Source: Mytilus californianus
Lineage: Eukaryota
DNA: 64,000 nt
Direction of reading: 5' to 3'
NCBI RefSeq assembly: GCF_021869535.1
Contig: NW_026262581.1
Coordinates: 47,182,001-47,246,000, forward strand
Shown: piece by piece, positions 6,121-57,372 of the stretch
How positions within the stretch are numbered: the stretch's first letter is position 1
How the letters are laid out: every line of letters begins with the position of its first letter
Made by a program: the position numbers and the translations under genes
Notes under the pieces: generated by a model
Seen by the model: the letters and a program-made list of their open reading frames with translations, nothing else
Database searches by the model: none
Told to the model about the DNA's origin: nothing

Positions 6121-7045
6121 CTGAATATTATTTTATTATGTCTTGGTACTTTCTAATGAACTTTTTGAGAAAAAATGCGAGATGTTCTTACACAAAACCC
6201 TAGCTCATTAATTTTTTCCTAAGGCACTCATAACGTTTTACAAACTCTGTGTAGCAGCACCAAGCTCCTGAAAATCGTATGAGTTGAGATATGTATACTC
6301 CATACGCGGATAAAGTTGTTATATCGCTGCTAAGGTGAGGAAAATTCATAATTTCAAAATAGAAATCATCAAGTTTGTCATAGACTCTGTTATTGAGATG
6401 ACAGCTGTAGTCAAATTCAGGGTATATGTCTAAAAATGAGGCCGATGAAGCTGTATATGTGGTGTCTTTAATGTCTAATTCATGACTTTTAATAGGACCT
6501 AATCAGAAAACTATGTATTGTAAATTTTACCTGTATGTAAAATTTAAATGATAAAGCTTATTTGATCAAACCCTTCCGAAAACAAAAACCTACGCATTAA
6601 CATATTTCCAGGAGAAGACCACCAGACCCTCTATCGATTCAATCATTTGTGGGTGCATTACGCATTTTATATACATGTACAAAGATATTTACTTTTCGAC
6701 AATTTACGCTCCTGGAGGTCCTATTATCTTGGATGCCTAGTTACATGTAATATTGCATCTTTGATGAAAACAGGTCTAAGTGTGGGTTAATATATTATAT
6801 CACAAAAAAAGAAAAAAGTTCTGTTTATATGTATGTGTCTATATTTTCATATTTCATTTTTATGATAGTTCTAACTTCCTTGAGGCAAAAGTCATACATC
6901 TTTCACTTAATACTGTGCTATTATCATCAATATGAAGTTAAACAGGAAACGTTTGAATTTTGATAGTGTGTATATTGAATCATCATGCAATAAAAAATTT
7001 AAAACAGTGCTGTATTTAACTTGTCTACCATAAAGTAGACATTTT

Positions 7046-9527: not shown

Positions 9528-9984
9528 ATTCAACAGTATTACTGAAGATTCTGGGATTGCAAGTAATACATATAACTGGTTTATCGTTCGTTAGTTCTAT
9601 TAGACTGATACCTTGCAGATTCAACTGGGTTTTTTAATGGGTCTACAAAAGGAATTTAACTTAATTTTGGGATCTGAAAATATTGCAACCAACAAATTAG
9701 GTTATTCACTAAAGCATATATAGGTGTTGCGAAACTGTCGTGTTAGAGTCTTAAGTTATTATAACCTATTCGTTTTCCCTTTTTTAATAAATCAATTAAT
9801 TGCATCTTCTCGTTAAAAATAAATATATAGAAGCAATCGTAAAACCAACGATATCGAGTTCGCTGATATCAATTGAGACAATAAGCTGATGTAGAAACTA
9901 GAATGATCACGAATCTAAATAGTATACATGAATATATAAAAGTATAAACATTCCAAAATTATGCTAGAATTGCCTTTCTTTACA

Positions 9985-11070
9985 TTACAGAAAATATACA
10001 AGCAAACTCTTAAAAGGATTAGATACAACATTGTACAAATTAGCTACACTATCATTTAATTTCACAATCAGATATCTTGATAATGTTCTTTCCATTAACA
10101 ATCCAAACTGTTCTGATTCGGTTCCATTAATATATCCTCCAGAACTAGAAATTAAAGAAACAACAGACATGGCTTCCTCTGCCTCATTTGTAGACGTATT
10201 CCTCGAAGTTCACATAAGAGGTCATTATAGTACCAGAATCTTTGACAAACGAGACGATTTTAATTTTGAAATTATAAATTTCTCCACCTTAGCAGCAATA
10301 TACCAACTTCACCTGCATATGGGATATACGTTTCCCAACTCATTCGGTATTCAAGAGCTTGCAGCTCCTACTCAGACTTTATAAAACGTCACCAGTGTCT
10401 GAGCAGAAAGTTGATGAACCAGGGTTATGACAAGGAACGTCTCGTCATTTTTCTAAAAAAATTCATTGGAAGATACCAAGACCTTGTTGATAAATATTCC
10501 GTATCAACTTAACAAATAATATATAATGGTTTTGAAGTATAGGTTCTAGGTACTGACGTTGTTTCTCCTCTTTATTACGTGTAATAGTGTTCTTTTTATT
10601 TGTCCTTGTACATCTGTTACCTTTACTGTTTAGTCCATTTATTTTGGTTATATACTTAAGCTTTTAGCGAGGCTCAGTGTTTATGCAATTCGCCATTGGT
10701 TTATTGTACTATGGTCAATTTTGTATTCTTAACTTTCATTTTTGCATCTATTTTGCATTTTTGTCTATAGAATGTCTATATGCCATTTTGTATTTTATTT
10801 TATAGTGATTAAGATTATACACAATGTTGACTGCTGAACTCCAATTTTAGCTATTTTAATTTTTCTGTTTGTTTTGCTCACACATTGTTGTCAATATATT
10901 GGAATTCTATGCAACTGTCATATAAGTGAGAGGTTTCGCTATAAAACCAGGTTTTATCCACTATTTTCTACATAAGAAAATGCCTGTACCAAGTCAGGAA
11001 TATGACAGTTGTTGTCCAATCGTTTGATGTGTTTGAGCTTTTGATTTTGCCACTTTCTGTTTTGAATTTC
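9985..11070 (+). mobile_element. 5'-truncated Penelope-like (Naiad-type) retroelement: RT C-terminus plus 3' region (family C)
   Basis: ORF 10031-10384 has RYLDNVLSINN and IFDKRDDFNFEIINF; a shifted frame continues into a YGIYVSQLIRYSRAC-like motif. The tail at 10800-11070 matches 41265-41610. Confidence 0.85.
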
Positions 11071-11988: not shown

Positions 11989-12362
11989 GAAATCCGGATA
12001 TGGTGTACAAAAACCTTTGCACCTTTTGTTTGAGGTATACCATCTTTTCCGCAAGTTTATTGTTTTTCTGTTTAGTATTAAATTTATAATTAAGACCCAT
12101 TTATTACATCGGTGATCCGTTTATTTGGCAATCGCCAATGGCAGTCAGCAGGGTTTAAGAACATTTGTTGTTCGACCTGTTAGTCAAATGCGATTTGTTA
12201 AAATATACTTTTTCACTTTTTTGATCTTTTGGAAAATGCTGTTTGTGCTGTATTTAGACCCATCTAACAAGAAATTTGTTTTGCATGCACACGTATAAAA
12301 ATTACGGGTTTTATCCAGCGCAATCATAGGTTTGAACGTTGTTTTCAATTTATACTTGTTTA
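11989..12362 (+). mobile_element. Partial copy of the 540-bp hammerhead (retrozyme-like) unit
   Basis: Starts at GAAATCCGGATATGGTGT (3' half of the ribozyme only) and is collinear with 52446-52820. Confidence 0.85.
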
Positions 12363-12480
12363 TCTTTGAAATTTGATGCAGTTAAAATACATTCAAGAAA
12401 TTTACCTCAATCAGAGACATTCGACTAGAACCAAAAGTCCTTTTTAGACTCTCGAATCTTTCAACTAATGCTTCTTATAA

Positions 12481-17666: not shown

Positions 17667-19955
17667 TGCAGATTATGAAAATGAACACTACAAAAAAAGA
17701 CAATTTCAAGTAGTTTACGTATTTGAAATACTTTTGGTACTAATTACGATTGTAGTAAAAGATGGTATGGTCCGTCTCATTCTTTGTATTGCTTTTTTGT
17801 TGGAGAAAACTTTGAGATTTTCATAAAGTAAAACAATGGACTTTGCAAAATCTTAATGTGGTATTTCATAACAGTAGATTGAGACATTGCATCGCGTGCC
17901 GCAAACACCTACTACACCTATTTGATTAAATGCTCATTAATTATTAGTCTAAACGTGTTTAAATATCCATAAATGTATTTTGAATAATCAGGGTATAGGT
18001 TAATAAAGGAGAAGGACGAAAGATACCAGAGGGACAGTCAAACATATAGATCAAAAACAAATTGACAACGCCATGACCAAAAATAAAAAGACAAACAGAC
18101 AAATAATAATACAGATGACACAACATAGAAAACTAAAGACTAAGCAACACGAACCCCACCAAAAACTGGGGGTTATTAAATTTAATTTGGTTTATAAAGT
18201 TCTGGTGTTTAAAAACCCGTAAATTTAAATTTAATTTCTGAAGAAAAAATACCTGCCTGAATAGTGTTTCTGGAGTTTTTGTTAAATTAACAATGTTTGA
18301 TTTGCATTTAAAATCCCTTTTTTCATTTAGAATCGAGTGTGATTTACGGTATAGATACCTAAAGTCACATGTTGGTGGCTTTGTATCAGGGATTATAAAA
18401 GCTTACATGCACTTTGTTCAAGTTGTCATACTCTGTCATGAATATATGCTCTTAAAGATAGTACGTATACTATTTTTTTCTTTGTGGGCTGTACTTTATG
18501 GTTAATACAAATTAAACTGGATTAATTAACTCTGACACTTATCTGTATTTTTAGGGTAAAAATTGAAGTGGTCAATAAAATCGTGTTTTTAATAACAAAA
18601 TAAGACATTGAAAGATTTCTGCTTGTTTAAGCATTTGTGTTTCGGGATAAGTTGACTATGAAACACAATTTTGATCAGACGATGCAGTACTATGATTTCT
18701 TGTGTCAAGATATTTGGGGTAACTTATATGATATGTATATAAAGTCGCAAACATAAGCTAAGGTCACTCCAGTCTTCTTTTGTCAAGTAATGTCTCTTCG
18801 GTGATGTTTCGATCCCTAACATCACTGAAGAGACATTAATTGTCGAAATCTGAATATGGTGTACAAATAATTGCACCTTTTGTTTGCAGATTATGAAAAT
18901 AAACACTACAAAAATAAGACAATTTCAAGTAGTTTACGTATTTGAAATACTTTTGGTACTAAATACGATTGTAGTAGAAGATGGTATGGTCCGTCTCATT
19001 CTTTGTATTGCTTTTTTGTTGGAGAAAACTTTGAGATTTTCATACAGTAAAACAATGGACGTTGTCAAATCTTAATGTGGTATTTCATAACAGTAGATTG
19101 AGACATTGCATCGCGTGCCGCAAACACCTACTACGCCTATTTGATTAAGTGCTCATTAATTATAAGTCTAAACGTGTTCAAATATCCATATATGTATTTT
19201 GAATAATCAAGGTAAAGGTTAATAAAGAAGAAGGACGAAAGATACCAGAGGGACAGTCAAACTCATAGATCGAAAACAAACTGACAACGCCATGGCCAAA
19301 AATAAAAAGACAAACAGTCAAATAATAATACAGATGACACAACATAGAAAACTAAAGACTAAGCAACACGAACCCCACCAAAAACTGGGGGTTATTAAAT
19401 TTCATTTGGTTTATAAAGTTCTGGAGTTTAAAAACCCGTAAATTTAAATTTAATTTCTGAAGAAAAAATACCTGCCTGAATAGTGTTTCTGGAGTTTTTG
19501 ATAAAGTAACAATGTTTGATTTGCATTTAAAATCCCTTTTTTTATTTAGAATCGAGTGTGATTTACGGTATAGATACCTAAAATAACATGTTGATGGCTT
19601 TGTTTCAGGGATTATAAAAGCTTACATGCACTTTGTTCAAGTTGTCATACTCTGTCATGAATATATGCTCTTAAGGATAGTACGTATAATATTTTTTTCT
19701 TTGTGGGCTGTACTTTATGTTTAAAACAAATTAAACTTGATTAATTAACTCTGACACTTGTCTGTATTTTTTAGGGTATAAATTGACCTGGGTCAAATAA
19801 AATCGTGTTTTTAATAACAATATAAGACATTGAAAGTTTTCTGCTTGTTTAAGCATTTGTGTTTCGGGATAAGTTGACTATGAAACACAATTTTAATCAA
19901 ATGATGCAGTACTATGATTTCTTGTGTCAAGATATTTGGGGAAACTTATATGATA
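17667..19955 (+). repeat. Tandem duplication, period about 1.22 kb (17667-18733 and 18885-19955)
   Basis: Both copies begin TGCAGATTATGAAAAT and end GATATTTGGGG(T/A)AACTTATATGATAT; high identity by eye; separated by a 150-bp spacer. Confidence 0.95.
18819..18862 (+). ncRNA. Minimal type-I hammerhead ribozyme motif
   Basis: ACATCA-CTGAAGA-GACA(TTAAT)TGTC-GAAA-T(CTGA)A-TA-TGGTGT: full catalytic core with stems I and II paired. Confidence 0.7.
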
Positions 19956-22064
19956 TAATAATATTATTATTGTTTGACGTAAATTTTACATTGAGGTTCT
20001 GAAAAAAAGAAATCACCAATTCACCAACATTCCAAATGACTCCATTTTCAGAAAACGACATCTGTAACAAACATAAACTTTTAGCTACCGCTTTACAAGC
20101 AGAACCAAATACAATGAAAGTCCCAACAATGTATTGGCTTTCAAAGCTACACAAAACACCTTACAAATATAGATTTATTTCGTCTTCAAGCCATTGTTCC
20201 ACTACTAAATTGTCTATTCTTCGTACCAGTACACTTGGTACAATCAAAAACCTGATAATAAATTGTTCAAATAAGGCCTTCGAAAATAGTGGAATTAATT
20301 ACTTTTGGAGTGTCAAGAACTCGTTGGAAGTACTTGATAAATTACATGCATATATTGGTGATTTTGAATCTGTTCAAAGTTTTGATTTTTCTACCCTATA
20401 TACCACATTGCCTCACATTCTCATTAAGAAAAAATTCACACACCTAATTAAATGGGCATTTAAAAAGTCAGAATGTGAATATATATGTTCAAACTCTTTT
20501 AGGTCATTTTTAAGTATCAATAAACAAAAAAACTATGTCAATTGGACATGCTTTGATACTATATATGCCCTTGAATTTTTACTAGATAACATTTTTGTTC
20601 GTTGGAGATTCCGTATATCGTTAGGTTATCGGAATTCCAATGGGGACTAACTGTGCACCACTTATTGCGGACCTTTTTTTTTGTATTGCTATGAGTTACA
20701 ATTTATGACAAAAATCAGCAAAGACCCATCGAAACAACATCTGATACACAAATTTAATAATACTTTTAGATATTTGGATGATATTTTGGCTCTCAATAAT
20801 GACGACTTCAGTATGTATACTAAAGAAATTTATCCTGTTGAACTTACTTTAAATAAAGCTAATACTAACAATGACCACTGCCCTTTCCTCGATCTTGATA
20901 TCTATATCATTAATGGAAAGCTTAATACTAAAATATATGATAAAAGAGATGATTTTTATTATTTCCTATCGTTAATTATCCATTTTTAGATGGTGACGTT
21001 CCCTTGTCACCATCTTTCGGTGTTTATATATCTCAACTTGTACGATTTGCTCGTGTTTGTAACAATGTTTTCGATTTTAGCGAGAGAAATTTATGTATTA
21101 CTGAAAAATTATTACACCAGGGTTTTCGATATCACAAACTAGTCAAAACATTTACTAAATGTTATCATCGGTATAAGGACATCATTCGTAAATATAGCTC
21201 AACATGCAGACTTCTTATACGTTCAGGTATTTCACAACCAATTTTTTATGGAAATATTCTTTTTAAAGCTCAAAAATGTCAGTATTCACCTCTGAAGCTA
21301 ACAAAACCTTTAAATAGACTTATTAAGAAGGGATATAGTTACGATACTGTTGTCAAGTCATTAAAGATTGCATATTTTGGCGTTAATATTGATTCACTTA
21401 TAGGGTCTTTGCATCGGCACTAAACACATTTATTTAAAAACCAGTTGTTGGCATGACACGGGTTATGTTCTTCTCATATATGTTATGATGGTATGATACT
21501 AAACCCCTAATGGGAAGGATTGTGCCTGATATTCATATTATGAAGACATAATCTTTCAATCAGTTTAATTGAAGTCTGGAGCTGGCATGTCAGTTAACTG
21601 CTAGTAGTCTGTTGTTATTTATGTATTATTGTCATTTTGTTTATTTTCTTTGGTTACATCTTCTGACATCAGACTCGGACTTCTCTTGAACTGAATTTTA
21701 ATGTGCGTATTGTTATGCGTTTACTTTTTCACATTGGCTAGATGTATAGGGGGAGGGTTGAGATCTCATAAACATGTTTAACCTCGCCGCATTTTTGCGC
21801 CTGTCCCAAGTCAGGAGCCTCTAGCCTTTGTTAGTCTTGTATTATTTTTAATTTTAGTTTCTTGTGTACAATTTGGAGTTTACTATGGCGTTCATTATCA
21901 CTGAACTAGTATATATATTTGTTTAGGGGCCAGATGAAGGACGCCTCCGGGTGCGGGAATTTCTCGCTGCATTGAAGACCTGTTGGTGACCTTCTACTGT
22001 TGTCTGTTCTATGGTTGGGTTGTTGTCTCTTTGACACATTCCCCATTTCCATTCTCAATTTTAT
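19956..22064 (+). mobile_element. 5'-truncated Naiad-type Penelope-like retroelement (family B): frameshifted RT plus 3' UTR
   Basis: ORF pieces 20036-20650, 20681-20989 and 21004-21423 give MYWLSKLHKTPYKYRFI, SFDFSTLYTTLPH, GIPMGTNCAPLIADLF, FRYLDDI, KIYDKRDDF and GVYISQLVRFARVC. No C-terminal GIY-YIG follows the RT, consistent with the N-terminal-endonuclease Naiad clade. Confidence 0.9.
21464..21550 (+). promoter_or_regulatory. Type-2 SECIS element in the retroelement 3' UTR
   Basis: A-TGAT (21485-89), 11-nt arm GGTATGATACT, AAA (21501-03), mini-stem CCC-TAAT-GGG, arm AGGATTGTGCC (10 of 11 pairs including G-U), TGAT (21527-30). Helix I pairs ATATG/CATAT, TCTT/AAGA and TATG/CATA. Confidence 0.8.
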
Positions 22065-22752
22065 TAGCTACGAGATATAGAAAAAATATAATATATGATT
22101 TTTTTTTCTTCAATGATTAATGAAAGGGAAATAGTGAAATAATATATCGTTTTTAACGGCCATTTTGGTTCAATTTTGTCAAAATAAGCAAAGAAACATC
22201 GATGATGAATTGTTCACTTGCAAGTGAATAATTCGAACTCATTGAATCCATATTCATGTGACCTTCACTTTAACCCCTTAGCTGAGCTGGATAACGCATG
22301 AATTAGGCGTGTTCAGTTATTAAAAGGAAACAAATTTCAACATTAAAAGTGAAACAAGGGTAAACCATTTGATTGACTGATTCGATGCACTAAAATCTCA
22401 CTCTTATACAGGTAAAAACGATGATTGATATATATTCTCACCTATGATATGAAACAAACAGACTTAGAAATTCAATCGCAAGAGTTCGCTATATATATTC
22501 ATATCTATATTTATGTTTATATCGGATTATATGACCGTTGGCAGTCTTTGGAGGTCACCGCGATAGTTAATTAGAAGGCGACTACAATAAAATACACATG
22601 AAATGCCGATGCATATTATCGAGCCAATGCATTGTAAATTGTTTATTTTAGACTTTTTAGAATTTGGATATACGTTTTAGTATGTTACAAAATCAAATAT
22701 GAGAATTTGAGTCAAATCGGTGATCATGAATATGACAGATTATGTCCCTTTA
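22065..22752. mobile_element. Probable Kolobok-like MITE, one end clipped by the Naiad
   Basis: Right end GTCCCTTTAA resembles a TTAA-flanked AGG..CCT terminus; the left end abuts the Naiad 3' end. Class is inferred. Confidence 0.4.
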
Positions 22753-24914
22753 ATGAAAAACTAAGTTCTACTTTAGATGGCATATTGGTTGTCGATTGAC
22801 AACGGCCGATCATTGTGATTTTGTATGCGTTCCAAATTTTCTTCTTTTATGACCGCTTTTTGTTCCATAAAGGTTTTAGTTAACAGGGATATGTTTAAAT
22901 GCGTATACAGGTTGCATTTCTGTAAATATAGAGAATGCAATTTCCCAACTGAACATCCCTTTACGGCTAAACTGTGCCACTTTTACTATGAAGTTTCGTG
23001 AAAAATTATATTCTAGAATGTAAAGTTGACATGCACCACTATTTTATTCAAAGGTCAAAACATAGGGCTGTGTGGCATATATTCAACATTTATATGCTCT
23101 GAACTTCTATGAGTTTAAACTTATACATAAATTCTGTACTACCCCTTACTTCACTGTAGGTCTTCCTCAGAATTCAAAATTCGCCGCAACCATGTGTATA
23201 TATACTAGTAACAATCCCAAGTTATATCTCTATGAGATGAAACATATAGATTATACCTTGGAACCAGTACGTAAACGAAACAAAATATCTATGAATATCA
23301 TATAAAAAGAGACGTGGTTTGTGAAACAGATGTATTTACAAAGTGCAACCTACAGTACATGCGCATTGTAAAAGAACAAATGTATTCAGTTAATCTAATA
23401 TGATCGATAGTCATAAACACTGATAATCATTGGCCATATATAAAGAAAATAACAGTATAATGTAATGTAATTCATGATATAACATCCAAAAACAACCACT
23501 CGACAAAAACAAATGCAAAGGGAAAACGTATAGCCAAAAATACTGAACTTCAAGGCAAATTTAAAAAGGGGAAGTCCATAAAAACTGGCCAAATCAAACC
23601 CTATCAACAGAACAAGTGATAAACAAATTGAACTGCTTTTTTATTGCTATTATTCATCTCCAAAACACATGGAGGTCTTATACATGGAACAAAAGGTGAC
23701 ATCTCACCGCAAGTTAAAGGCGGTCCACATCACCATTACAAGCCTTTATATCTATTTTATCTTATTTTGTAGTATTTCGGATTTTTATGAAATTTTGTAT
23801 GCATTAAAAATCTATTGAATTGCATCTGAATATCGAAAAATCCTACATGATGAAATATAATCATTAGATACAATCAAATAAAACATTGTTAATAAATGAT
23901 ATGATGTAAATTTAAAGTATTTTCAAAGATATTTTGTACACGTATTAATTGATTTTATCACTCGAAATGTATCAATGTCTCAAATAGTTGATGTATTTCT
24001 CATGTTTCTAAGACTTTCTATATATCTTAAAGTTAACAAAACTTCATAAAATTTAAAATATGATCCCCCTTTTTTCTGTTCTTAAATACTTCCTGTTTTC
24101 CTTAATTCACTAGTGTGACATTGTATATCAAATCAAATCTAATTGCACCTCTTGACTCCAAACGGATGATAAGAGCTATGTTATTTTGATTCGGCAAAAG
24201 GTCAACACATCTTAAGTATTTCCGCATTTATCATTTGAAAAAAATATTTCTCAAACATAAATAAAAGAATATTAATTTGCTGATGGGTTGGTAAAATAAG
24301 GTGCAAATTAAAAAAATATCATTGAAAAAAACATAGTTAAAAGGAAGAGGTTGAATACAAACAACATTTTATAAGCAAAACTTTTACTTTTCAATAGAGA
24401 TTGAACAACACGAACCCTACTTTAACTCCGGGTAAACTTTGTCGAACCAGAAGCGCACCCTTCATGGGGCTTATGACATGGGAAACCGGATTCGATGAGT
24501 TCATATATAAAGCAAGAAAATATGTATCTAAGGGCTGCGTCAAGTTTAGATAAGGTTTTTATATTGGTACAAATGTATATATTCATTTATTTGATAAAGA
24601 TGTATTTTTCGACAAAACTATTTGTAAACACTGAAAGTCTTCACATATGTTTCAATGATACAATTGATCTTTTTTTTTGAATTAAGTTGTATGAATAAGT
24701 ATGTCTGTATATTGCCATATTTCATTTTATGATAGTTCTAACTTCCTTGAGATAACAACTATAACATTTTCCCTAAATACTGTGTTATTTTCATCATTAT
24801 TAAGTTAAACAGGAAACTTTTGATAGTTTATATATTGTATCATCATGCAATTAAATATCTAATTCTGTGCTGGTTTAACCTGTGTACCGTGAAGAAAAAC
24901 TTTTTTTAGAGAAC

Positions 24915-27419
24915 ATGTTTGCTTTTGCTTATTTTATAACAATATACTTATTTGCATTTGTTTCTTGTCATACATGTTTGATTCAAGACAACAGAGGAGA
25001 TTGTTCCTCACGAGGGATATACACTGTTCCACAGGATTTACCTCGGAATCTTACGTCACTGGACTTAAAACGAAATTTAATAGGTACAATATCACATGGC
25101 GATTTCCAATTTTATGGAAAATTGATAATATTAATTTTAGACAAAAACAAGATTTCCGTACTGCAATCAAATGCTTTTAGAGGACTTAAACATTTAAAGC
25201 ATCTGTCAATGGCTGAAAACAGGCTTGATCTTAATACATCATATGTCTCGGAAATATTTGGACCTCTGAAATCTCTAGATAGGCTGTACATTTCAAGAAA
25301 TATGCAAGTAGGAACAGATTTGCCAGTTTATTATCCGTTTTTCGGATATTGCCGTAAACTTACAATTCTGGAAATGGATCTTGCTCGAAAGCCAGTGTGG
25401 AATAACTGTGGATTGTCAAAACTGAAACAGTTACGAACTTTATCTTTCAACTTCTGCTTTTTAGATAGAATGACCAATGGAACCTTCGCTGGTATGCCAC
25501 CATCAATAGAAAATGTGCACTTCGCTGGCTGTAAGGTTCGTGAGTTGGCTGAACTAAACTTTCTTAAACCTTTTCATTCGTTGAAGATTCTTCGCTTATT
25601 CCAAGTTTGCATGGACATTGAGTCAGCACTGAAGATAGTATATCCTTTTTAAAAAATGCAAGAGTTAAACATTACAGAAGTTAATCCTGGCTATTGTGAT
25701 GGACTTATTAGAGCTCCTTATGCAGTTATAATAAATGCTGATATGACAAAATACTTGCGAAAAGTATGTTTAAGAAAATTAATTTTGATAAGAAATGGTA
25801 TTGTGGATTTCAAGCCAAATTCTTTACTTTCTTACAATCATCCTGAATGTTTTATTACAATAATTTTTTCTGGAGACCGATTTTCAATGACAAATGGATT
25901 TAAAACAGTTGAACTGTCAAAGTTCATACTGCAGTTATCAAATCTTGTAACTTTCAACTATTCCGGGATTCTCAGTATTTCAACTGACGAAATTAATTCA
26001 GGTTTAACGGCCGATACAGAATATGCAGAAAATCTGGATCATTTGATTGCAAATAATAGGAAATCGGATGTTCAAATAACGTTCCCGTTCCCCCAATCAC
26101 TGCAAATACTTGTTTTGTCGAAATTTGCTGGAGTTCAAGGAACTACTCCACATACAATATACTTATCGAATATAAACTATTTGCGTGTTCTCGATTTATC
26201 CTATTTCAAGATGAAGTATTTTCCAAATATTGTGTTCAATGGAACGAACTTTTTGGAATATGTTGACCTTTCCGGTATTGACTCAACTCTGTACTCAGGA
26301 AGGAAGAATATTCCTTTGTTTAAAGAATCCAAAACTTTGATATTAAAACATGCAAGGGTTGATTTGACACTTCGCAGAAGTAAGCAAATATTTAGTCTTG
26401 TGCCAACAGTAAAAAGATTGGATATATCATATAACCACTTATGGTTCCTGCCAATTGACGCATTCAACTCAAACAAACACTTACGACATCTTGATATGGG
26501 ATTCAACTTATTTTCGGAAGTACCAATAGCGTTGCACACATTAACAAATCTTGAAATTCTAAATTTAGAACATAATAATCTCCAAACGATCAATAAGACG
26601 TTTCAGCAGTTGTTCGATTGGAGAAATGAGCGAATTCAGGCTTCGTTTCAATTAAAACTTTCAGGAAATGTTTTTAGATGCAATTGTGAGAATTCTGACT
26701 TTGTGTTATGGATTTCCAAAACAAGGATAAAACTTGATAAACCTGCGAGAAACTATACGTGCCAGTTGGAAAACGGAACATATACTAATACACAGAAAGC
26801 AGCAGAAAATTTCCATGAATTTTATGGTAATTGTGAAAATGAAATGTGGCTCCGAGTTGGTATATGTTTACTCGTGATATTCATAACATTTACTACTCCT
26901 ATTGCAGTCATAGTTAATTTCAGGTGGCGAATAGCATATTGGGTATATCGGGTTTTTAAAAGAGTTGTTGAAAATGATTTAAAATTAAAATTCAAATACG
27001 ATATTTACTTATCATATTCAGATGATTGCTTCGATTGGGTCAAAGACATGTTAATACCGAAAATTGAGATCACATGGAAAATGAAAGTGTGTATAGAGGA
27101 TCGGGATATTTTGGCTGGAATTATCCGATCTGATGCTATTTCCCAGTCTATTCATGAAAGTAAAAACATAGTATTTGTCATTTCTGAATCATTCACCGAA
27201 AAAACATGGGGAAAGTTCGAGATTCAAAGAGCAAAGTATGAAAAGTACACTGGACATCTGCAGCGTATTATTGTCATTACCAAAAACGTCCAAGTAGAGA
27301 ACTTCCCAATCGAACTCGATTGTATTCTCGATGATGTTTTTCTTGTGACTTGGTCAGATCAGGAAATTGAAAATGGATGGGACAAGTTGAGAATGGCGTT
27401 GTTTTCAGACTATAGTTAA
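24915..27419 (+). pseudogene. Single-cysteine-cluster Toll-like receptor, intronless, with one in-frame premature TAA (25650-25652)
   Basis: ATG at 24915, signal peptide MFAFAYFITIYLFAFVSC, LRR-NT (CHTC...DCSSRG), LRRs, LRR-CT NVFRCNCENSDFVLWI...YTC, TM WLRVGICLLVIFITFTTPIAVIV, TIR (KYDIYLSYS, RDILAG, WDKLRMAL). ORFs 24882-25652 and 25656-27419 share a frame; the paralog has CAA at the stop position. Confidence 0.95.
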
Positions 27420-38421: not shown

Positions 38422-38541
38422 ATATATGCGAACAGGTTAATAACTCTGAAAACTGTGATATTGTCATCAATATGTTGTATTAAATTTTGTCCTTTTCAAA
38501 ATTACAATTCACTACCCAACACACTGTTGACGCACAATATA

Positions 38542-39645
38542 CTACATAAGCCTATTGTTCATTTTTACGACATGAATTCTTCCGTTTGCTTCATTTTCGC
38601 CTTTACCTCATCAAATTAATAAATATTCTTCAGTGTCAAAGCATACGCTATATGGATAGGTAATGCCCAAGTCTTTGAAAATGAACTGAAGTCCAAGTAA
38701 ATCTCCTTATGAATTTATAACATGTAGTACATCGTTATCGTGATCTGCACTTACAATGGTATCACTTGGCGTTATAGTAATCCCATGTGGTTCTAATGTT
38801 TCTTAATCCTTTTGCCTGTCGTAGGTAAACTTCAAGTGGCCATTTCTATCTACAGCTACTATTCTACCGTGGTGGTCACTGTCAAATTTGTCAATTACAT
38901 ATACAACTTTTCTAGAATCAGTGCGAATTCTTCCTGCATAACTGAACAATGTATTCCCTTTTTTATAAAATTCTAATGTTACTTTCCATTGATTATCATT
39001 TCGAAAAATTGTAACTTGTCTGACCGAAAAATCCTGGGCTGGATGCGGCGGTCCTTGTTCTCTTAATCCAACTATTACTTCATTATCTTTGTTTACATGT
39101 ATGCCCAAAGGTCGGACTTGAGAAATATCTAACACAGACTTGACTTCACCCGTAGGTGATAAAATTTGTACTCTGTTGGTATCATATTCAATAAAAAGTA
39201 TTTCGCCGTCTTTATTTATTGCAAAGTCAAATATACTTATTTTTAACTTCTGCAATGTCTTTATTGAAGATTTCAAAAGTTTACCTTTCACATATGAATC
39301 TCCCTCAGATGATACACAGCAATTGGTTAAGTAAACTAAATCGTCGTCCGAGCAGAGTAAAGTATAAACCGATGGTAGAGTAGTATTGTATGATTTGAAA
39401 ACTGATGAAATCACTGCAGAGGTTACCTCCTGGAAACCTGGTGATAACATGCTGATATCCTAAATAGAAATAACGTCATGATCTTGTGTGGACGGAAGTC
39501 CTTGATGGACGGTAACTTTACAGGAGTTACACATGCGAACATTGCAATCGTCACATTTCCATTTAATATCTTGTTCTTTGCAAAAATAGCATGAAACTGA
39601 CACTTATGCTTTTCTTATACTTAAGGATTTTATTAATACTGCCAT
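38542..39645 (-). pseudogene. B-box + NHL-like beta-propeller gene (TRIM-like), copy 2
   Basis: ATG at 39645; B-box SCYFCKEQDIKWKCDDCNVRMCNSCKVTVH...H; in-frame stops at 39604-06, 39460-62 and 38803-05, plus more near the 3' end; propeller ORF 38803-39450. Confidence 0.93.
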
Positions 39646-40559
39646 TACTACAAGTGAAAAAACAAAATGGTCACGTGTTTTACTTCCTTGTACATTGTAA
39701 CTCGGTAAACAGTGTCAAAGATAAGAACTTGAATACCTACTTTTCACGGCGTAACGATATATTTATCGATATACACAAGTTTAAAGATTTGTACAAAGCT
39801 ACTTATAAGAATATATACGGTAACAGTATCATTTGTATATTGGACATATTGATGTCACATTATATCTGAAATGATTAAAGGTGATATACCAACAAACGTG
39901 ACTGGCTTTATTATTTATAGAAGTTTCATAAATTTTGATCACACGATGGATTGGCCGGTGTCTCATCATACATGTCGTATAATTTTGACGGCAGGCAAAA
40001 ACTCTCCCCCTTTTCATATATTGATTTCTGCCAAAATCACTACCAATATATATTATGGGTCTGCATTGGGTTTACAGAATAGAGAATAATGGGCAAAATA
40101 AAGTCCCCAAAAATAAGGAATAGAGAAATATCGGCCGAAAAAAAATAGAGAATAGTCGGGCGCTAAATTATGAAGAATAGAGTAAAATGGGCCGAAAAAT
40201 AGTCTGAAAAAATAAAGAATAAATGAACACCCATCCCCAAACCCCCCACCCCCCGTCCTACACCCTATCCAGACCCTCATATATATTTCATAGTAAATTC
40301 ATAACCCTTTTCCCATATATATATTTCCAGCTATCAGACATCCAATCTGTGACATTTTATCTGCATTTGTACAGTAAATGTTAACCATATAGAATCATTC
40401 ATATGATTAGATAAAAAGATCAGTACACAGTTTTTACAGACATCTTAACAGAAGATGAACAAGTATGACCCATTTACATATACATGTCTACCTATTGTTG
40501 TATTACTTCCGTGAAATATCACCCTATTGAAAATTTTGTTTTCCAAAAAAATTACCAAT

Positions 40560-43985: not shown

Positions 43986-44781
43986 CATAATTTATAAGTT
44001 AAGTACAATAATTTGCACACACATCAAAGATGAAGGTTCCAAACATCCGTAGTCAGCGGAATATTTTTAACGCAATGAGTGAGGGCGTTCAAATCAGCCT
44101 TCCATATAATGCATAGAAAGCTGTAATAATATAATAAGTATAATTGAACCATTCATGACACGAAATCATTACGCCCGTATGAAAAAGCAAAAGCAAAGAA
44201 TAGTGCTTGTTTTCTTGTTTTTTTTCTCAAATTCACAGTCAGGCCATCAATATGGAGCAAAAACTCTCTCAACACAGTGTATGTTAAAGACGGCGTCTAG
44301 CCTTTTGGCAGAATTCTTTGCTAAATGTTAATCCTGGTACATCACACAGCTGAACGGTAATGTCAACAAATTATATATTATGGCTAGCAAAGACATCCAA
44401 TCAATGATGTCATAAATAGCAAGATAAAGGCAGTAACTGTATAGCTCAGAAATAAAACAAACATCAAGATAACGATAGGGACCATCAAGATATATTTTCA
44501 AATCAGATATTTGGTGGGGAATTGCATATGAATGCAAACAATTCTTGTGGACTGCAAAACAATTTCAATAAATCAATCAAGCGATCAAATGATGAAGCAC
44601 ATAAAACAAAACTCATCTCAAAAATTAAAACACCGTTAATTTTCTTAATTTCAAAGTCAGTGAGGCCTCCATCGTGAAGTAGAAACTCTTAACGCGCTCT
44701 CGACGGTCCCTATATGTTTTAAATAATTCTTTTTTTTTTTTTTTGACAACATTTACAACAAAAGTTTTAATGCATAGCATA

Positions 44782-45873
44782 TTACATAAGCTTGTCTGTC
44801 ATTTTCACAACATGGATTTTACCATAGTTCTCATTTTTGCCATAAGCGCTTCCGATTAATAAATATCCTTCACTGTCTATGCATAAACTGCGTGGGGATT
44901 CTAGACCAAGATCGTTGTAAATTAACTGCAGACCAAGTAACTCGCCTTTCGAATTAAGAACATGTAGTGAATCATGACTAATGTCTGCAACTACAATGGT
45001 ATCACTAGGCGATATAGTAATTCCTTGTGGGTTGAATGTTCATGAATTCTTATGTCCGTTGTAGGTAAACTTCAAACGGCCATTTCTATCTACAGCTAAT
45101 ACTTTCTCATTGTTCTCGGTCAAACAATCAAGAACATAGATAATATTTCTAGAATCAGTACGAATACGTAATGTATAACTGAACAATTTATTCCCTTTTT
45201 TGTCAAATTCTAATGTAACTTTCCGTTGATAATCACTATCGAAAATTATCACTTGTTTGACAGAAAAATCCTGGGCCGGAAACGGTGGTCCTTGTTCTCG
45301 TATTCCAACTATTACCTCGTTGTCTTTGTTTACATGTATGGTCAAAGGTTTCATTGGAGTTGTATCTAACATAGCCTTGACTTCATCAGTATGTGATAAA
45401 ATTTGAATTTTGTTGGTGCCATATTCTATAAAAAGCATTTCGCCGTCTTTATTATTGCAAAGTCAGATATACTTCTCTTTAACATCTGCAATATCTTAAT
45501 TGATGATTTCAAAAGTTTTCCTTTCACAAACTGATGATCGTCACATTTGTTACTGCACCAATTATAGTAAAGTAAATCGTCATTTGAGCAAAGTAAAGTA
45601 TGAACAGAAGGCAAGGTAGATGTGTATGAATTGAAAACTGATGAAATAACTACAGACGTTACCTCCTGATGATGACTTGCTGATACCCTGAATAGAAACA
45701 ACGTCATGATCTTGTGCAGACTGAAGTCCTTGATGAACAGTAAATTTACATGAGTTACACATGCGAACATTGCAATCGTCACATTTCCATTTAATCTCTT
45801 GTCCTTTGCAGAAATAGCACGAAACTGGCACTTGCGCTTTTCTAATACTTGATGATTTCAATGATTTCGCAAT
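44782..45873 (-). pseudogene. B-box + NHL-like beta-propeller gene, copy 3
   Basis: Start codon position reads ATT; 8-nt deletion in the linker near 45670; second frameshift near 45440; stop at 45040-42. ORF pieces 45580-45861, 45426-45782 and 45040-45438 tile the paralog. Confidence 0.93.
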
Positions 45874-46899
45874 TTCTACAGTAAAAATACAACATTACGT
45901 GACGTGTATTTCTCTATTATTTGTTACTAGATATACAGTGTCAAAGATTAATACTTGACTTTTTTTATATGTAATACTATTTAAAGTGTTGCCTTCCCAT
46001 GGCCTATAGATAAAAAAAGTTATCATCAATATATAGTCTAAAGATTAGTTCAACGATACTGATGAAAGATAAATACGACACTTTCAATCTATCCTACAGT
46101 TTATTAAGGATGTACGCTACTCTGTTTCAAAATAAAAAAAAACATACATTCAACATTGGCACCTTTATACCTTCCAAAAACTATGAAAAAATAACATAGA
46201 TTTAGTTGAATTATGGCTTTTTAAACTATATGTAATAAAATTATGAAAAGAAAATGAAGGGTAAGCGGGCAATATTTTTAATGGCACTACACTGATAAAG
46301 CCAGATGAAACGAAATATCTGACAAAATTTCAAAAATAAGAGGAGCAAACATCCTTCAAAATAAAGAGGCAATATATCAAAAAAATTGTTCATAGTCAAA
46401 ATTAAATTTCAATCAAGAAGTTGATAACCGAAGGAGTTATACCTCATTTAAGTTCATCATTGGAAGCCCATTATGCGTGTAAAAACTTACAAAATTGTTT
46501 TACTTACATTGGTGTTCTATCTAGCCTCTTCAAATAGATACATTTTTTTAATGCAGTGTATATCTTTCTTTCAAAAGGCGTCCTTGTTCATTTCGATTAC
46601 TTACTCTATCTACAAATTAGACTGAAACGTTTTGTACCAATCAATAGAATAGAGCAAAAGTTTAACGTTTCCCTTTTATTTAAAAAAAATAATAAACCAA
46701 AATTAAATGAAAATTTAAAGGCCGATTTCCCTCTTGGGTGTTTTGTCAGAATGTATGGAGCGCTGTGTTTATAAACATGTTTACAATCACTTAAAAAGTT
46801 ATAAGTTTCTTAGCAATTATCACTAAGGGGACTCAACAGTAAATCAAATGTAAAATATTTTAGATGGGTTCTGTAATACTATGAACGGTACCAATTTTA

Positions 46900-49520: not shown

Positions 49521-52419
49521 TTAATACACATGAATAGGGCATGTATCCCCTCTTTCTCACACATTCTTTGAATGACATTTCTCTATTATTTAAGCTTAAT
49601 TTCCTTTTTCCAATGTGTTTTTTCTATCACTTACATAATCTTATATTGGGAGAATTTAACATGTACATGTACTCTTTATCTAGACTGGTGTACAACACGT
49701 GTACAGAACAAAAGATTACAGGGAAGACAAACACGTGCTGCTCCCAATGTTATATTGTTTGAGAAATAACAGGAACACATTGAATAAAATAGAATAAGCT
49801 GAAAATCTATGGAAAATATCTGTATCATAAAAAAAGAGATCCGTGAAAAGGTTCGGAAAATCTGCAATTCTAACTTATTTAGCTCGATAACCATCTAGAG
49901 AAAATTTCGATATTTTTCCTTGTTTCCATATTTTACTAAAAAATGAACTTAGTTCATTTTCTGCATCATCATTTAGGAACAGTCTGATTGAGGTAAAACA
50001 AAATATTTCGCTATGACATTTTTCAAGAGAAATTTAATATTTTTACACGGTAAAAACTAAAAACTATTACATAATTATATTTTGCAGTACTTCTATATTA
50101 TGTCTGCAAGGTCCAAATTGCACTTCCAAATAGCAAACAAAAACAGAATTTTCATTGAAAAAAGGAGATACTTTATACAGCCGGATTAAGCTGATTAAAA
50201 ACATGGCCAAATTAATCATATAAGCTATTCTTGTGGATTTGCCGAATCTGATAACAAAAGGTTCAATATTATGAATAGGCAAATTTCGTTGTATGGAATC
50301 AACTACTACTCCGATTGTTTTGATCTATGATAAAAAATATACGCATCTTGCGTATATTTTTAGGAACAATCATTTAACTTCAAGGAGGGGAAGAGGTCAA
50401 CAGATGACCACATGTTTATATTTTTTTCAACTACAATAAAATCAAGTTATTTTTTATTACCGAGTCAGATTTTAAATTTCAATGCTAAGAAAGTAAAAGG
50501 TGTGTGTATTCCTATGAAATCACACGCAGTAAATAAAGCTTGTATATACTGTAAATTTGTTTAATAAAACATGTGCAGGGGCGGATCCAGGGTCCGAGAA
50601 AAGGAGGCGTAATAGTGCATAATGGTAAACAAAAGTCGTCGAAATGTCTTTTTTACGATTTTATGCCAAAATATTATATTTTTTTCGATCAAAGGGTGGC
50701 GGACTCACTTTACCCCATCCTCTTTCCACCACCACCCCCATTAAACCTGCCACTAATTTGCATACACTTTTCCTGTTTTAAATATATCTCACTTATCTTT
50801 TGTATTTTTTTTTATTATACATGTAGAGGACATAGCGCAATGTTGAATGAAGATGCAAATTTATTACTAAAACGGCTGAGACTGGAGTTAAAGGTGGGAG
50901 TAATGACAGCGTAGTAATAAAAAAGACACCAACTATCTTATTATTAGCAAACAGTTTTGATTTGCGAGTCGTAATTCCATCGTTTAAAATAAAGTATCGT
51001 ATTCACTACAATTCAGCAACAATATCCCCCAAAAAAGTACACATAGGATTCTATTTGAATTATCTATAATCAAAACTTTATTTTCGACGGCATTTTCGGG
51101 CAGAATTTCTGTCACATACAGTATCAAGCGGGTAAAAAACGATCACTATCCATTTCGTGCCATTCCTCTTCTGTTCATCTACTTAATATTAACTGTGCTA
51201 TTAAACTAAGTTGAATCATTTTGTAATATTGAACACATTAACATAATTCAATAATGAAAGTTAGAGAAAACACATACCTCTCTTTAAAATGTTTTTCAAT
51301 TCAACTGTTTAGTATAATTATTTTTCTTCTTCTTTGAATTTAAAATGCTGTATTTTGATTACGTACGGCAAAGATTTTTTTGCATTTTAATACATTAAAA
51401 AAAAGAAGATATAGTCGGTGGATGTACATGATACAACACTGTTGTTAATACTTATAGCGTTATTTGCTTGGTTCTACAATAGTATTGTGTTTAGAACAAA
51501 AACTTCAAGAAATTGAAATGGTCGAAATGGCAAAATCGGTCTAGTCTGAATGTTCCGATTGTTAAAATTTTAATACACTACTAATTATAAGGGATACCTT
51601 TAGGGGTGTGGATAAAATTAAAACTTAAATATTGGGCACGATTTATGTTCAATTTTCAACGGAAACGTGTGACATCATCGATTACAGTGACTGTTTGTGT
51701 TATATACCCGGTGGCGAATATTACAGTATATCGGCAATGTACAATATAATAAGATCAATAAAAAGGGCATACAATTATACCAATTATCAGCAAAAATTCG
51801 TTAATGATCCTCGAAATTTATCAAAAAGATACACAAAAGGATTTTGGAAGAACAAAGTTAATAGAAACAAAGCTACAGGGGCCTGTTAATCGAAGCGCTC
51901 TTATGACTAGGACATGTCCTGAGACCATCTTAGGGCATGTCATTGTCCAAAGTGGGTTAATCAAACGTGTCGTAACTTACGAAAAGTCACAGGAATTGTC
52001 CTAATTTATGACACCTATTTAGTTGTCTTACGATGGTCTTAGGATGATCATAACTTTAGAATGTATACTATGATATTATTTTTATTTATTTTTTTGTAAT
52101 GTGATATACTATGATCATGGTTAATTTGTAATTGTTTAAACAAATACGACCGCCCTCTATATATATATATTTAGACCCCTCTAACAAGAAATTTGTTTTG
52201 CATGCACACGTATAAAAATTGCGGTTTTTATCCAACGCAATCATAGGTTTCAACGTTTTTTTCAATTTAGACTTGTTTATATTTTTTCGTTTGGGCTTGT
52301 ATTATATTTGCCTTCGGGTTTATATGATCCGTTCATCCTATTTTGACTCCTCAAAATTCTAGAGTCTATCCCAAATTGAGGTAAATTATGTGGCCTTCCA
52401 ATAACCGTTTTGATTCCTA

Positions 52420-52463
52420 ACATCACTGAAGAGACATTAATTGTCGAAATCCGGATATGGTGT
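52420..52463 (+). ncRNA. Minimal type-I hammerhead ribozyme, predicted cleavage after A52457
   Basis: Stem I ACATCA/TGGTGT, core CTGAAGA, stem II GACA-TTAAT-TGTC, GAAA, palindromic stem III TCCGGA, AUA cleavage triplet. Confidence 0.85.
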
Positions 52464-52959
52464 ACCAAAAATATTTGCACCTTTGTTTGCGGTATACCAT
52501 CTTCGCCGCAAGTTTATTGTTTTCTGTTTGGTATTAAATTTAAAGTTAAGATCCATTTATTACACCTTGTGATCCGTTTATTTGGCAATCGCCAATGGCA
52601 GTCAGCAGGATATAAGAACATTTGTTGTTCGACCTGTTAGTCAAATGCGTTTTGTTAAAATATACTTTTTCACATTTTTGATCTTTTGGAAAATGTTGTT
52701 TGTGCTGTATTTAGACCCCTCTAACAAGAAATTTGTTTTGCATGCACACGTATAAAAATTGCGGTTTTTATCCAACGCAATCATAGGTTTGAACGTTGTT
52801 TTCAATTTAGACTTGTTTATATTTTTTCGTTTGGGCTTGTATTATATTTGCCTTCGGGTTTATATGATCCGTTCATCCTATTTTGACTCCTCAAAATTCA
52901 AGAGTCTATCCCAAATTGAGGTAAGTTATGTGGCCTTCCAAAAACCGTTTTGATTCCTA

Positions 52960-53003
52960 ACATCACTGAAGAGACATTAATTGTCGAAATCCGTATATGG
53001 TGT
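52960..53003 (+). ncRNA. Minimal type-I hammerhead ribozyme, second unit
   Basis: Identical to 52420-52463 except stem III reads TCCGTA. Confidence 0.8.
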
Positions 53004-53382
53004 ACAAAAAATATTTGCACCTTTGTTTGCGGTATACCATCTTCGCCGCAAGTTCATTGTTTTCTGTTTGGTATTAAATTTAAAGTTAAGATCCATTTAT
53101 TACACCTTGTGATCCGTTTATTTGGCAATCGCCAATGGCAGTCAGCAGGATTTAAGAACATTTGTCGTTCGACCTGTTAGTCAAATGCGTTTTGTTAAAA
53201 TATACTTTTTCACTTTTTTGATCTTTTGGAAAATGTTGTTTGTGCTGCATTTAGACCCCTCTAACAAGAAATTTGTTTTGCATGCACACGTATAAAAATT
53301 GCGGTTTTTATCCAACGCAATCATAGGTTTGAACGTTGTTTTCAATTTAGACTTGTATATAGATATATATATATATATATAT

Positions 53383-55709: not shown

Positions 55710-56808
55710 TTACTTTAAACTGTCTGCAATTTTAACGACATGGATTTTACCGTAGTCCCCATTTTTGCCTCTACTACATCCAATTAATAAATATCCTTGA
55801 GCGTCAAAGCATAAACTACATGGACCAGTCATGCCCAAGTCTTTGGAAATGAACTGCAATCCAAGTAAATCTCCTTTCGAATTCATAACATGTAGTATAG
55901 CGTTAACTGGATCTGCAACTACAATGTTATCACTTGGCGTAATAGTAATTCCCTTTGGTTTAAATGTTCCTAAATTCTTTTGTCCGTCGTATGTAAACTT
56001 CAAACGGCCATTTCTATCAACAGCTACTATTCTACCGCTGTGGTCACTGTCAAATTGATCAACAACATACAGAATATTTCTAGAATCAGTACGAATTCTA
56101 GATACATAACTGAACAGTTTATTCCCCTTTTTGTCAAATTCTAATGTAACTTTCGGTTGATAATCACTACCGAGAATTATAACTTGTCTGATTGAAAAAT
56201 CCTGGACTGGAAAAGGTGGTCCTTGTTCTCGTAATCCAAATAATACTTCGTTGTCTTTGTCTACATGTATGGCCAAAGGTCGCATTGGAGAAATGTCTAA
56301 CACAGTCTTGATTTCACCCGTAGGGGGTAAAAGTTGAATCTTGTTGACATCATGTTCATAGAAAAGAATTTCGCCATCTTTTTTTATTGCAATGTCAAAT
56401 ATTTTTCTTTTATACGTCTGCAATATCTTTATTGATGATTGTAAAAGTTTCCCTTTCACGAATCTATCCTTCGATGATAAAACAAAATAGATAAAGTAAA
56501 GTAAATCGTCATCCGAGCAAAGTAAAGTATGAACAGCTGGCAGAGTAGTTGTTTATGAATTGAAAACTGATGAAATAACTGCTGACGTTACCTCGTTGGA
56601 ACCTCGTGATGACTTGCTGTTTCGGAATAGAAACAACTTCATGATCTTGTGCAGATGTAAGTCCTTGGTGAACAGTAACTTTACAGGTGTTACACATGCG
56701 AATATTACAATCTCCACATTTCCATTTAATTGCTTTTCCCTTGCAGAAAAAGCATGAAACTGGCACTTGTGCTTTTCTAATGCTTGAGGATTTCATCGAT
56801 TTCGCCAT
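55710..56808 (-). pseudogene. B-box + NHL-like beta-propeller gene, copy 4 (least damaged)
   Basis: ATG at 56808 (MAKSMKSSSIRKAQVPVSCFFCKGKAIKWKCGDCNIRMCNTCKVTVH). A 2-nt deletion near 56620 and an in-frame TAA at 56553-55; the propeller frame is then open to the natural stop at 55710. Confidence 0.93.
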
Positions 56809-57372
56809 TACTACAAGTGAAAAAACAAAGTGGTCACGTGGTTCACCTTTTGTACGTTGGTTCTCGATAAATTGTGTCAAATGTTAGTACTTGAGTAACT
56901 TGTAATAGAATTTCCTTTCACGGCGTAAAGATATATTTATAGATATACACAAGTGTGGACACAGATTTGTGTTGTCTGATGGGCGAATTTTGATAATGAC
57001 TTGCGCATAGCTGGATTCTGGTGGAACCAGCAGGCACTTTTACCACTGCAAATTCTAAAACTCTGTAGTGTTGTCTGGTGGGCGAATGTGAACACTGTTT
57101 TACGTAAAGGATATAAGCCGATAACAGTCCTTTCTGTAAAATATTGGAGAGGTCTGATGCAGCAGACCGAAGACCTGTTCAATATTTTATAGAAGGAACT
57201 GTTAGAGGCTTATATCTTACTTAAAACATTGTTTAACCACTCAAAGAACGTGAAAAAGCAAACAAACACAAACTTTTGTTAATATTTATTTCCATCAAGT
57301 GTGTAAATTGTTTTGGATTAACTTTATTAATTTATCTAAAATGTTTGCCCCTTTAAGCAGTAGCAATTAAAC

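What the first reader, a model, noticed from the sequence alone, without database searches (positions are those of the whole stretch)
52171..53356. 540-bp tandem units each holding a minimal type-I hammerhead ribozyme (retrozyme-like circular RNA source)
Seen: an exact 540-bp period with one intact hammerhead core per unit (52420-63 and 52960-53003), a palindromic stem III (TCCGGA), no credible ORF, and (TA)n runs at both ends. Established: minimal type-I hammerheads with palindromic stem III cleave as dimers, and non-LTR retrozymes in metazoans, including mussel, yield monomeric and circular RNAs and are thought to be mobilised by PLE RTs. Inference: read-through transcription here would release a 540-nt monomer, and neighbouring Naiad or other PLE RTs are candidate helpers. 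Whether this size class is already catalogued cannot be determined here.
Basis: partly seen in the sequence, partly recalled or inferred. Interest (0 to 1): 0.7.

Follow-up and report, generated by a model that had tools for sequence, protein, structure and literature searches.

The report
Mussel-type retrozyme with Neptune-like ends
This is one of several thousand scattered insertions of a non-coding 540-base repeat carrying a hammerhead (self-cutting RNA) motif; it belongs to a known class (animal retrozymes), and its ends suggest that it is likely pasted into TA microsatellites by a Neptune-type Penelope retrotransposon enzyme, likely copying round an RNA circle.

Summary
The 540-bp period, two type I hammerheads, lack of ORF and TA flanks are real. 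Two corrections: copy 2 has lost the palindrome, and the helices are canonical, not minimal. The unit is a genome-wide family (12,717 exact ribozyme-motif matches, 3,834 exact TA-tailed ends). Copies have one fixed 3' end, 359 nt past the cut site, random 5' ends and TA flanks, the footprint of target-primed reverse transcription. Of 148 copies picked by their 3' end, 87 run through the cut site, 64 exceed one unit, none is joined to an ORF, and 5' ends do not pile up at the cut (3 seen, 2.5 expected). The template was therefore a circle or an uncut multimer. Intact Neptune-like Penelope elements here end in the same AG(A/G)C motif before TA; the Naiad does not. Cleavage and circles are unshown, and RNA reads look like read-through. 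Verdict: new member of a known class, with a concrete helper candidate. The scan noted similar TA-inserting retrozymes on other DNA.

The parts
52158..52170 (.). (TA)6 plus T, left remnant of the target microsatellite; the last TAT also matches the unit (microhomology at the 5' junction)
   Evidence: sequence
52171..53356 (+). 5'-truncated head-to-tail array, 2.2 units of 540 bp, non-coding; young subfamily (98-99% to its best genomic relatives)
52420..52463 (+). Type I hammerhead 1: helix I ACATCA/TGGTGT, CTGAAGA 52426-32, helix II GACA/TGTC, GAAA, palindrome ATCCGGAT; predicted cut after A52457
   Evidence: family conservation
52960..53003 (+). Type I hammerhead 2: core intact, palindrome broken by G>T at 52994; predicted cut after A52997
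52458..52997 (+). Predicted cut-to-cut 540-nt monomer (inferred circle)
   Evidence: inference from the two cut sites; fold no better than shuffles
53346..53356 (+). Fixed 3' end of the family (TTTAGACTTGT, unit position 106), carrying the AG(A/G)C motif shared with Neptune-like PLE ends; internal copies at 52266-52276 and 52806-52816 are followed by TTATAT, the likely priming match to the TA target
53357..53382 (.). Right TA run (one G interruption)
11989..12367 (+). Older, 5'-truncated copy of the same family (93%), ending at the same 3' point
18806..18887 (+). Ribozyme-containing fragment of the family between 1072-bp direct repeats

Best explanation
The array is one insertion of a high-copy, non-coding, hammerhead-bearing repeat with a fixed 3' end, random 5' ends and TA flanks, likely a non-autonomous retrozyme that is likely copied by a Neptune-type Penelope-like RT/endonuclease from a predicted 540-nt RNA circle. 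Inferred steps: a multimeric transcript is cut at the hammerheads (helped by dimer pairing of the palindrome); a host ligase closes the monomer; the helper nicks (TA)n and primes on the UAUAU just past the AGAC motif, 359 nt downstream of the ligation point; it copies round the circle and stops at random (about 0.15 per 100 nt); the cDNA end joins through TA microhomology. Shown here: copy anatomy, copy numbers, read-through of the cut site, ribozyme conservation, the shared terminal motif. Not shown: cleavage, circle, helper identity.
For: Fixed 3' end: 71 of 86 observed 3' ends at unit 102-119, 63 of those 71 next to TA; 5' ends uniform round the unit (KS p=0.37, n=86). In a ribozyme-anchored sample 12 of 21 distinct arrays end there (counted by eye). 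Exact counts: 3,834 TA-tailed ends, 7,807 internal junctions, 12,717 ribozyme motifs, controls 0. Of 148 3'-anchored copies, 87 cross the cut site, 64 exceed one unit, 29 cross two cuts; 3 end at a cut against 2.5 expected. Units are closer within arrays (0.86%) than between (1.58%); 9 of 22 young arrays carry a private variant in all units, against at most 2 in 500 label shuffles. Array length does not track age (rho -0.005, n=30). The ribozyme is conserved: 1.7% vs 6.9% mismatch in 19 older units, core intact in 103 of 107 units, kept in a 573-bp relative at 82% identity (L176). A 349-bp sister family has the same core with a different perfect palindrome (ATGCGCAT). Neptune-like helper: intact 911-aa RT plus C-terminal GIY-YIG ORF in 3169-bp tandems; 9 of 10 Neptune-like clusters with their own TA end show AG(A/G)C there and the tenth in 1 of 3 printed ends (by eye), against 10 of 148 other TA flanks.
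Against: No sign of cleavage or circles in RNA: 1,429 of 10.3 million and 1,667 of 12.6 million reads (about 0.013%, against my rough genomic share of 0.4%), both orientations, loose ends running into TA tails, no pile-up at the cut. A 6-of-28 pile at 52456 in run X21 was 2 nt off the cut and absent. These are cDNA/oligo-dT libraries of other individuals or species, with no DNA control laid. Folding does not favour the active ribozyme (helix I probability at most 0.13) and the monomer folds no better than shuffles (z -0.7 linear, -0.6 circular). An uncut linear multimer gives the same length curve. Shared private variants also arise by local duplication: L033 and L050 show periodic patterns, and 2 of 39 arrays (L052, L061) join old 5' units to young 3' units; 13 of 22 arrays, the window's included, have no private fixed variant. 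An excess of 5' ends just after one full turn did not replicate (6 vs 5.5 expected). No Neptune with extended homology to the unit was found; the shared motif is only 4-5 nt. Naiads also target TA.
Confidence: 0.62

Rival explanations
1. Same non-autonomous PLE passenger, but the template is an uncut (or rarely cut) linear read-through multimer from long source arrays; the ribozyme only trims transcripts or is nearly silent.
For: No cut-site signal in RNA; poor predicted folding; arrays of about 25 units exist as possible donors (C1:4.54 Mb); 8 of 9 Xenopus retrozyme dimers did not cleave in vitro (bioRxiv 10.64898/2026.07.22.740005).
Against: The ribozyme is among the most conserved 2% of 44-nt windows (units are related, so not independent) and the palindrome covaries with the sister family. 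Partial cleavage of linear templates should pile 5' ends at the cut, and does not. Only 16 of 184 unit-specific variants recur in a second array, 6 at the same index.
Confidence: 0.22
2. Copies insert as short pieces and arrays then grow locally by unequal crossover or by repeated insertion into their own TA tail (the satellite model of Li et al. 2026).
For: Periodic unit patterns in L033, L050 and L066; old/young chimaeras L052 and L061; copies nest in each other's TA tails.
Against: The length curve is smooth through 359 and 540 nt; long arrays are no older than short ones. A single cut monomer can give at most 359 nt, yet 87 of 148 copies are longer. This process likely adds to some long arrays but does not explain the bulk.
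Confidence: 0.08
3. The unit is the orphan pseudo-LTR of an autonomous PLE that I did not find, or it is moved by the abundant Naiad.
For: Li et al. report retrozyme-pLTR homology for 24 of 57 Xenopus families. The Naiad is very abundant (24,292 candidates), has intact tandems and targets TA (PMC8557442). My PLE survey was partial (150 scored GIY-YIG hits, 30 fetched).
Against: 0 of 148 copies are joined to an ORF; the 3 with a Neptune ORF upstream are separated from it by that element's own end. The units are pure head-to-tail repeats. The Naiad end lacks the motif.
Confidence: 0.08

Closest known systems
Animal non-LTR retrozymes, including the 350-390 nt Mytilus galloprovincialis families (Cervera and de la Pena 2020, PMC7229834; parts 1-4 of 6 read, supplement unreadable)
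   Same: Head-to-tail non-coding repeats, one type I hammerhead per unit, low GC, thousands of copies; PLE helper and circle-templated cDNA were proposed there. A 349-bp family in this genome shares the ribozyme core and fits that size class (identity to the published family not checked).
   Different: 540 bp and more copies. No similarity to the 349-bp unit outside about 64 nt round the ribozyme, and a different fixed end (349-bp family: 33 nt past the cut, mostly without a TA run; 28 of 30). Cleavage and circles are unshown here.
Non-LTR retrozymes as non-autonomous PLE derivatives (Li, Clavereau, Pollet 2026, bioRxiv 10.64898/2026.07.22.740005; parts 1-3 of 5 read)
   Same: Meets their working definition (two consecutive units with a complete hammerhead); size inside their 51-972 bp range.
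   Different: No mollusc is among the taxa they list; they favour local tandem amplification and did not analyse insertion ends in the parts I read. No homologous pLTR was found here.
Neptune/Nematis-type EN+ Penelope-like elements (Craig et al. 2021, PMC8557442; passages)
   Same: Fixed 3' end, 5' truncation, tandem and inverted insertions, microsatellite targets; in this genome the same AG(A/G)C-before-TA end.
   Different: The unit has no ORF and a canonical-type ribozyme, whereas the autonomous elements here carry minimal-type motifs in their 3' UTR. Neptune versus Nematis was not separated by a tree.

Membership tests
Animal non-LTR retrozyme | Tandem units, each with a complete type I hammerhead core | tested here: met
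   2 of 2 units in the window; 103 of 107 units in 39 arrays; ribozyme region MFE -9.1 kcal/mol
Animal non-LTR retrozyme | No protein coding, low GC | tested here: met
   longest frame 86 aa stop-to-stop, 48 aa from ATG; GC 33.9%
Animal non-LTR retrozyme | Dispersed multicopy family independent of an ORF | tested here: met
   3,834 exact tailed ends; 0 of 148 joined to an ORF
Animal non-LTR retrozyme | Monomer size in the reported range | tested here: met
   540 bp is inside 51-972 bp but above the 170-400 nt of the 2020 paper
Animal non-LTR retrozyme | Self-cleavage of the transcript | not testable with these tools
   only indirect: conservation, palindrome covariation; folding unfavourable
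Animal non-LTR retrozyme | Accumulation of linear and circular monomer RNA | tested here: inconclusive
   low, read-through-like signal in cDNA/oligo-dT runs, which select against circles
Animal non-LTR retrozyme | Highly self-paired monomer | tested here: inconclusive
   MFE -105 kcal/mol as a circle but z -0.6; 3 of 131 consensus pairs with a two-sided change in 18 units
Minimal hammerhead of PLEs (PMC4209133) | Long helix II (7-8 bp), short helix I, extra base before helix II, no helix III | tested here: not met
   helix I 6 bp, helix II 4 bp, no extra base, helix III 2 bp plus tetraloop
Canonical type I hammerhead | Helices of 6, 4 and 1-2 bp with a palindromic loop 3 | tested here: met
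   palindrome in 102 of 107 units, broken in window copy 2
Canonical type I hammerhead | Loop 1-loop 2 tertiary contact | not tested
   not modelled; PMC7229834 says the mussel ribozymes mostly lack the conserved contact bases
Pseudo-LTR of an autonomous PLE | Unit continuous with an RT-EN ORF | tested here: not met
   0 of 148 sampled copies; sample, not whole genome
Naiad-dependent element | 3' end shared with the Naiad | tested here: not met
   Naiad ends CTCAATTTT with no AG(A/G)C and no hammerhead; no significant blastn match to the unit

The most novel reading that the evidence does not exclude
A short 3' signal, AG(A/G)C a few bases before UAUA, is the address that Neptune-type RT-endonucleases use to pick their RNA, and this retrozyme has adopted it. 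The enzyme primes inside a covalently closed 540-nt circle and rolls round it, so the genome itself records circle-templated target-primed reverse transcription. Ribozyme and helper signal are separate modules: the 349-bp sister shares the ribozyme but has a different end.
Probability: 0.4. Interest if true: 0.7.

Novelty: new member of a known kind. Interest (0 to 1): 0.5.

Why it matters
The class is known, but which enzyme moves animal retrozymes, and whether a circle is the template, are open. PMC7761336 states that metazoan retrozymes show no conserved motif pointing to their helper. This family offers one: a fixed priming site with a motif shared with intact Neptune-like elements in the same genome, and a length curve that ignores the ribozyme cut site. 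That gives a ready pair (911-aa helper, 540-nt passenger) for a mobilisation assay. Several thousand insertions also make it a sizeable part of this genome's repeats. My six literature searches that ran listed no paper on this family or this motif; Repbase/Dfam and two supplements could not be checked.

Tried and rejected
Rfam scan: no match. Excess of 5' ends just after one full turn (21 vs 8.9 in the first 98 copies, post hoc): did not replicate in 50 new copies (6 vs 5.5, p=0.49); rejected. A second fixed 3' end, a lead from the scan's earlier notes: 9 matches at unit 524 against 3,834, and both arms of the clean inverted pairs L298 and L315 end at the same point; rejected for this family. 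A hairpin that would block the ribozyme in the circle (52458-52499, p about 1 in the window copy): lost in L176 and absent from the consensus fold; not supported. A conserved global fold: little covariation. Homology of the unit to Neptune or Naiad UTRs: best E 0.18. In-vivo cut site from read starts: not seen. Naiad as helper: ranked below Neptune. The supplement of PMC7229834 could not be read, so the 349-bp family could not be matched to the published mussel sequences, and a 540-bp entry there or in the preprint's tables cannot be excluded. PMC5785218 was not held. Rows dropped: one copy in each 3'-anchored sample had no alignable upstream hit (L258, L349+). Both samples come from contig C1 only and need an exact terminal motif, which favours less decayed copies.

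Full report
Observation. The window holds 2.2 head-to-tail copies of a 540-bp unit at 52171-53356, with 12 mismatches over 646 bp, between TA runs. Each full unit has a type I hammerhead core, with predicted cuts after A52457 and A52997. Copy 2 has TCCGTA, so only copy 1 has the palindrome. By the definitions in PMC4209133 (passages) the helices (6, 4, 2 bp plus palindromic tetraloop) are canonical, not minimal. There is no ORF of note and GC is 33.9%. Rfam gives no hit. Two more pieces of the family lie in the window, at 11989-12367 and 18806-18887. The host is probably a mussel-like bivalve; this is inference from the 1.65-Gb genome, a mollusc-labelled run that holds the unit and the sister family below.

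A genome-wide family. A DNA search gave 2,751 candidates, of which 37 were scored. Exact patterns give 12,717 ribozyme motifs, 7,807 internal junctions and 3,834 TA-tailed ends, with 0 for reversed controls. In the fetched loci, 71 of 86 observed 3' ends fall at unit 102-119, 63 of these 71 next to TA, while 86 5' ends are uniform round the unit (KS p=0.37; this set is biased to long arrays). In a ribozyme-anchored sample, 12 of 21 distinct arrays end at that point (by eye). Head-to-head inverted joints occur (9 listed). A fixed 3' end, random 5' truncation, inversions and microsatellite targets are the insertion pattern described for Penelope-like elements (PMC8557442, passages).

The fixed end is not the cut site. 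It lies 359 nt downstream of it, so a cut linear monomer could yield at most 359 nt. I measured 148 copies chosen only by their 3' end on contig C1 (98, 50; one unalignable copy dropped from each set). Of these, 87 cross the cut, 64 exceed one unit and 29 cross two cuts. Only 3 stop within 6 nt of a cut, against 2.5 expected. The template was therefore a ligated circle or an uncut multimer. A bump of stops just after one turn, seen in the first set, failed in the second (6 vs 5.5).

Circle or multimer. For a circle: units are closer within arrays (0.86%) than between (1.58%); 9 of 22 young arrays have a private variant in every unit (at most 2 in 500 shuffles); only 16 of 184 unit-specific variants recur in another array; length does not track age. 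The ribozyme is under constraint: 1.7% vs 6.9% mismatch in 19 older, related units, retention in a 573-bp relative at 82% identity (L176), and a 349-bp sister family (663 exact matches) with the same core but the palindrome ATGCGCAT (16 of 30 sampled). That double change keeps an 8-nt palindrome, as dimer pairing would need. Against: local duplication also homogenises arrays, periodic patterns and two old/young chimaeras are present, and 13 of 22 arrays, including the window's, have no private fixed variant. Folding does not favour the active ribozyme, and the monomer is no more structured than shuffles.

RNA. Reads exist but are few: 1,429 of 10.3 million and 1,667 of 12.6 million, well under my rough 0.4% genomic share. 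They map in both orientations, are richest at the 3' end, run into TA tails, and show no start or end at the cut. This fits read-through of embedded copies. The libraries are cDNA or oligo-dT, from other individuals or species, and no DNA control was laid, so circles are neither shown nor excluded.

Helper. None of the 148 copies is joined to an ORF; three have a Neptune-like ORF upstream that ends at its own terminus first. Following the neighbours in the TA tails led to an intact 911-aa RT with a cysteine linker and C-terminal GIY-YIG in 3169-bp tandems, and to other such families. Of 16 C-terminal clusters, 10 had their own TA-abutting end; 9 show AG(A/G)C just before it and the tenth in 1 of 3 printed ends (by eye). 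The background is 10 of 148 other TA flanks. The unit ends TTTAGACTTGT. As in the Neptune-like tandem, the next unit continues with TATAT, a likely priming match to the nicked target. The window's Naiad family (19960-22065; 24,292 candidates) ends CTCAATTTT and has no hammerhead. The motif is short and no extended homology was found, so the helper is inferred. Neptune versus Nematis was not resolved.

What is known. Animal non-LTR retrozymes of 170-400 nt, including mussel families of 350-390 nt with shown cleavage and circles, are in PMC7229834 (parts 1-4 of 6; supplement unreadable). Circle-templated, more-than-unit cDNA was proposed there and in PMC4209133. A 2026 preprint gives 51-972 bp and PLE origin, and favours local amplification (parts 1-3 of 5). 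PMC7761336 says no conserved motif points to the helper (passages). PMC6765202 was seen as passages only. The scan's own notes report similar TA-inserting retrozymes in other genomes; their two-end pattern is absent here. RtcB-type ligation is taken from PMC7229834, not tested.

Verdict. A real, new, abundant member of a known class. Non-autonomous PLE passenger: about 0.9. Neptune-like rather than Naiad helper: about 0.75. Circle as template: about 0.65. The value lies in the testable helper-and-signal pair and in the read-through statistic, not in the size. Interest 0.5.

Noticed in passing
window 19960-22065; L098:5415-8423: Very abundant Naiad in 4020-bp tandems whose 1002-codon frame has four in-frame TGA (codons 55, 86, 97, 522), the last eight residues after DKA as in the selenoprotein Naiads that PMC8557442 reports for two clams and two spiders. 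SECIS not tested.
   Followed up: partly
L177-L206: 349-bp sister retrozyme with the same hammerhead core, palindrome ATGCGCAT, and a fixed 3' end 33 nt past the cut, mostly without a TA run (28 of 30); likely another helper and possibly the published mussel ~350-nt family.
   Followed up: partly
L057:3640-4290, also L032, L058, L062, L132: Third hammerhead family with a 438-bp period, a B-box-like motif and a TTAGACGAGTTGT-TA end; ARAGORN finds no tRNA.
   Followed up: partly
L258 about 1440-1519; L349: The last ~25 nt of the unit repeated three times before the TA tail in L258, with a similar short doubling in L349, as if the RT re-primed repeatedly.
   Followed up: no
L144, L140, L056: Neptune-like elements use two alternative 3' ends about 85-90 nt apart, both with the AG(A/G)C motif. 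The 540-bp unit has a second TTAGAC about 96 nt upstream of its end but was rarely seen to end there.
   Followed up: partly
window 17667-19956: 1072-bp direct repeats (95%) with a 150-bp spacer that holds a ribozyme fragment of the family.
   Followed up: no
window 24879-27419 and 6816-10011: Toll-like receptor gene (LRR plus TIR) split by one stop, with an 83% identical degraded paralogue.
   Followed up: no
window 38539-39792, 44779-45958, 55721-56970: Three ~80% identical paralogous segments, one with a B-box zinc finger.
   Followed up: no
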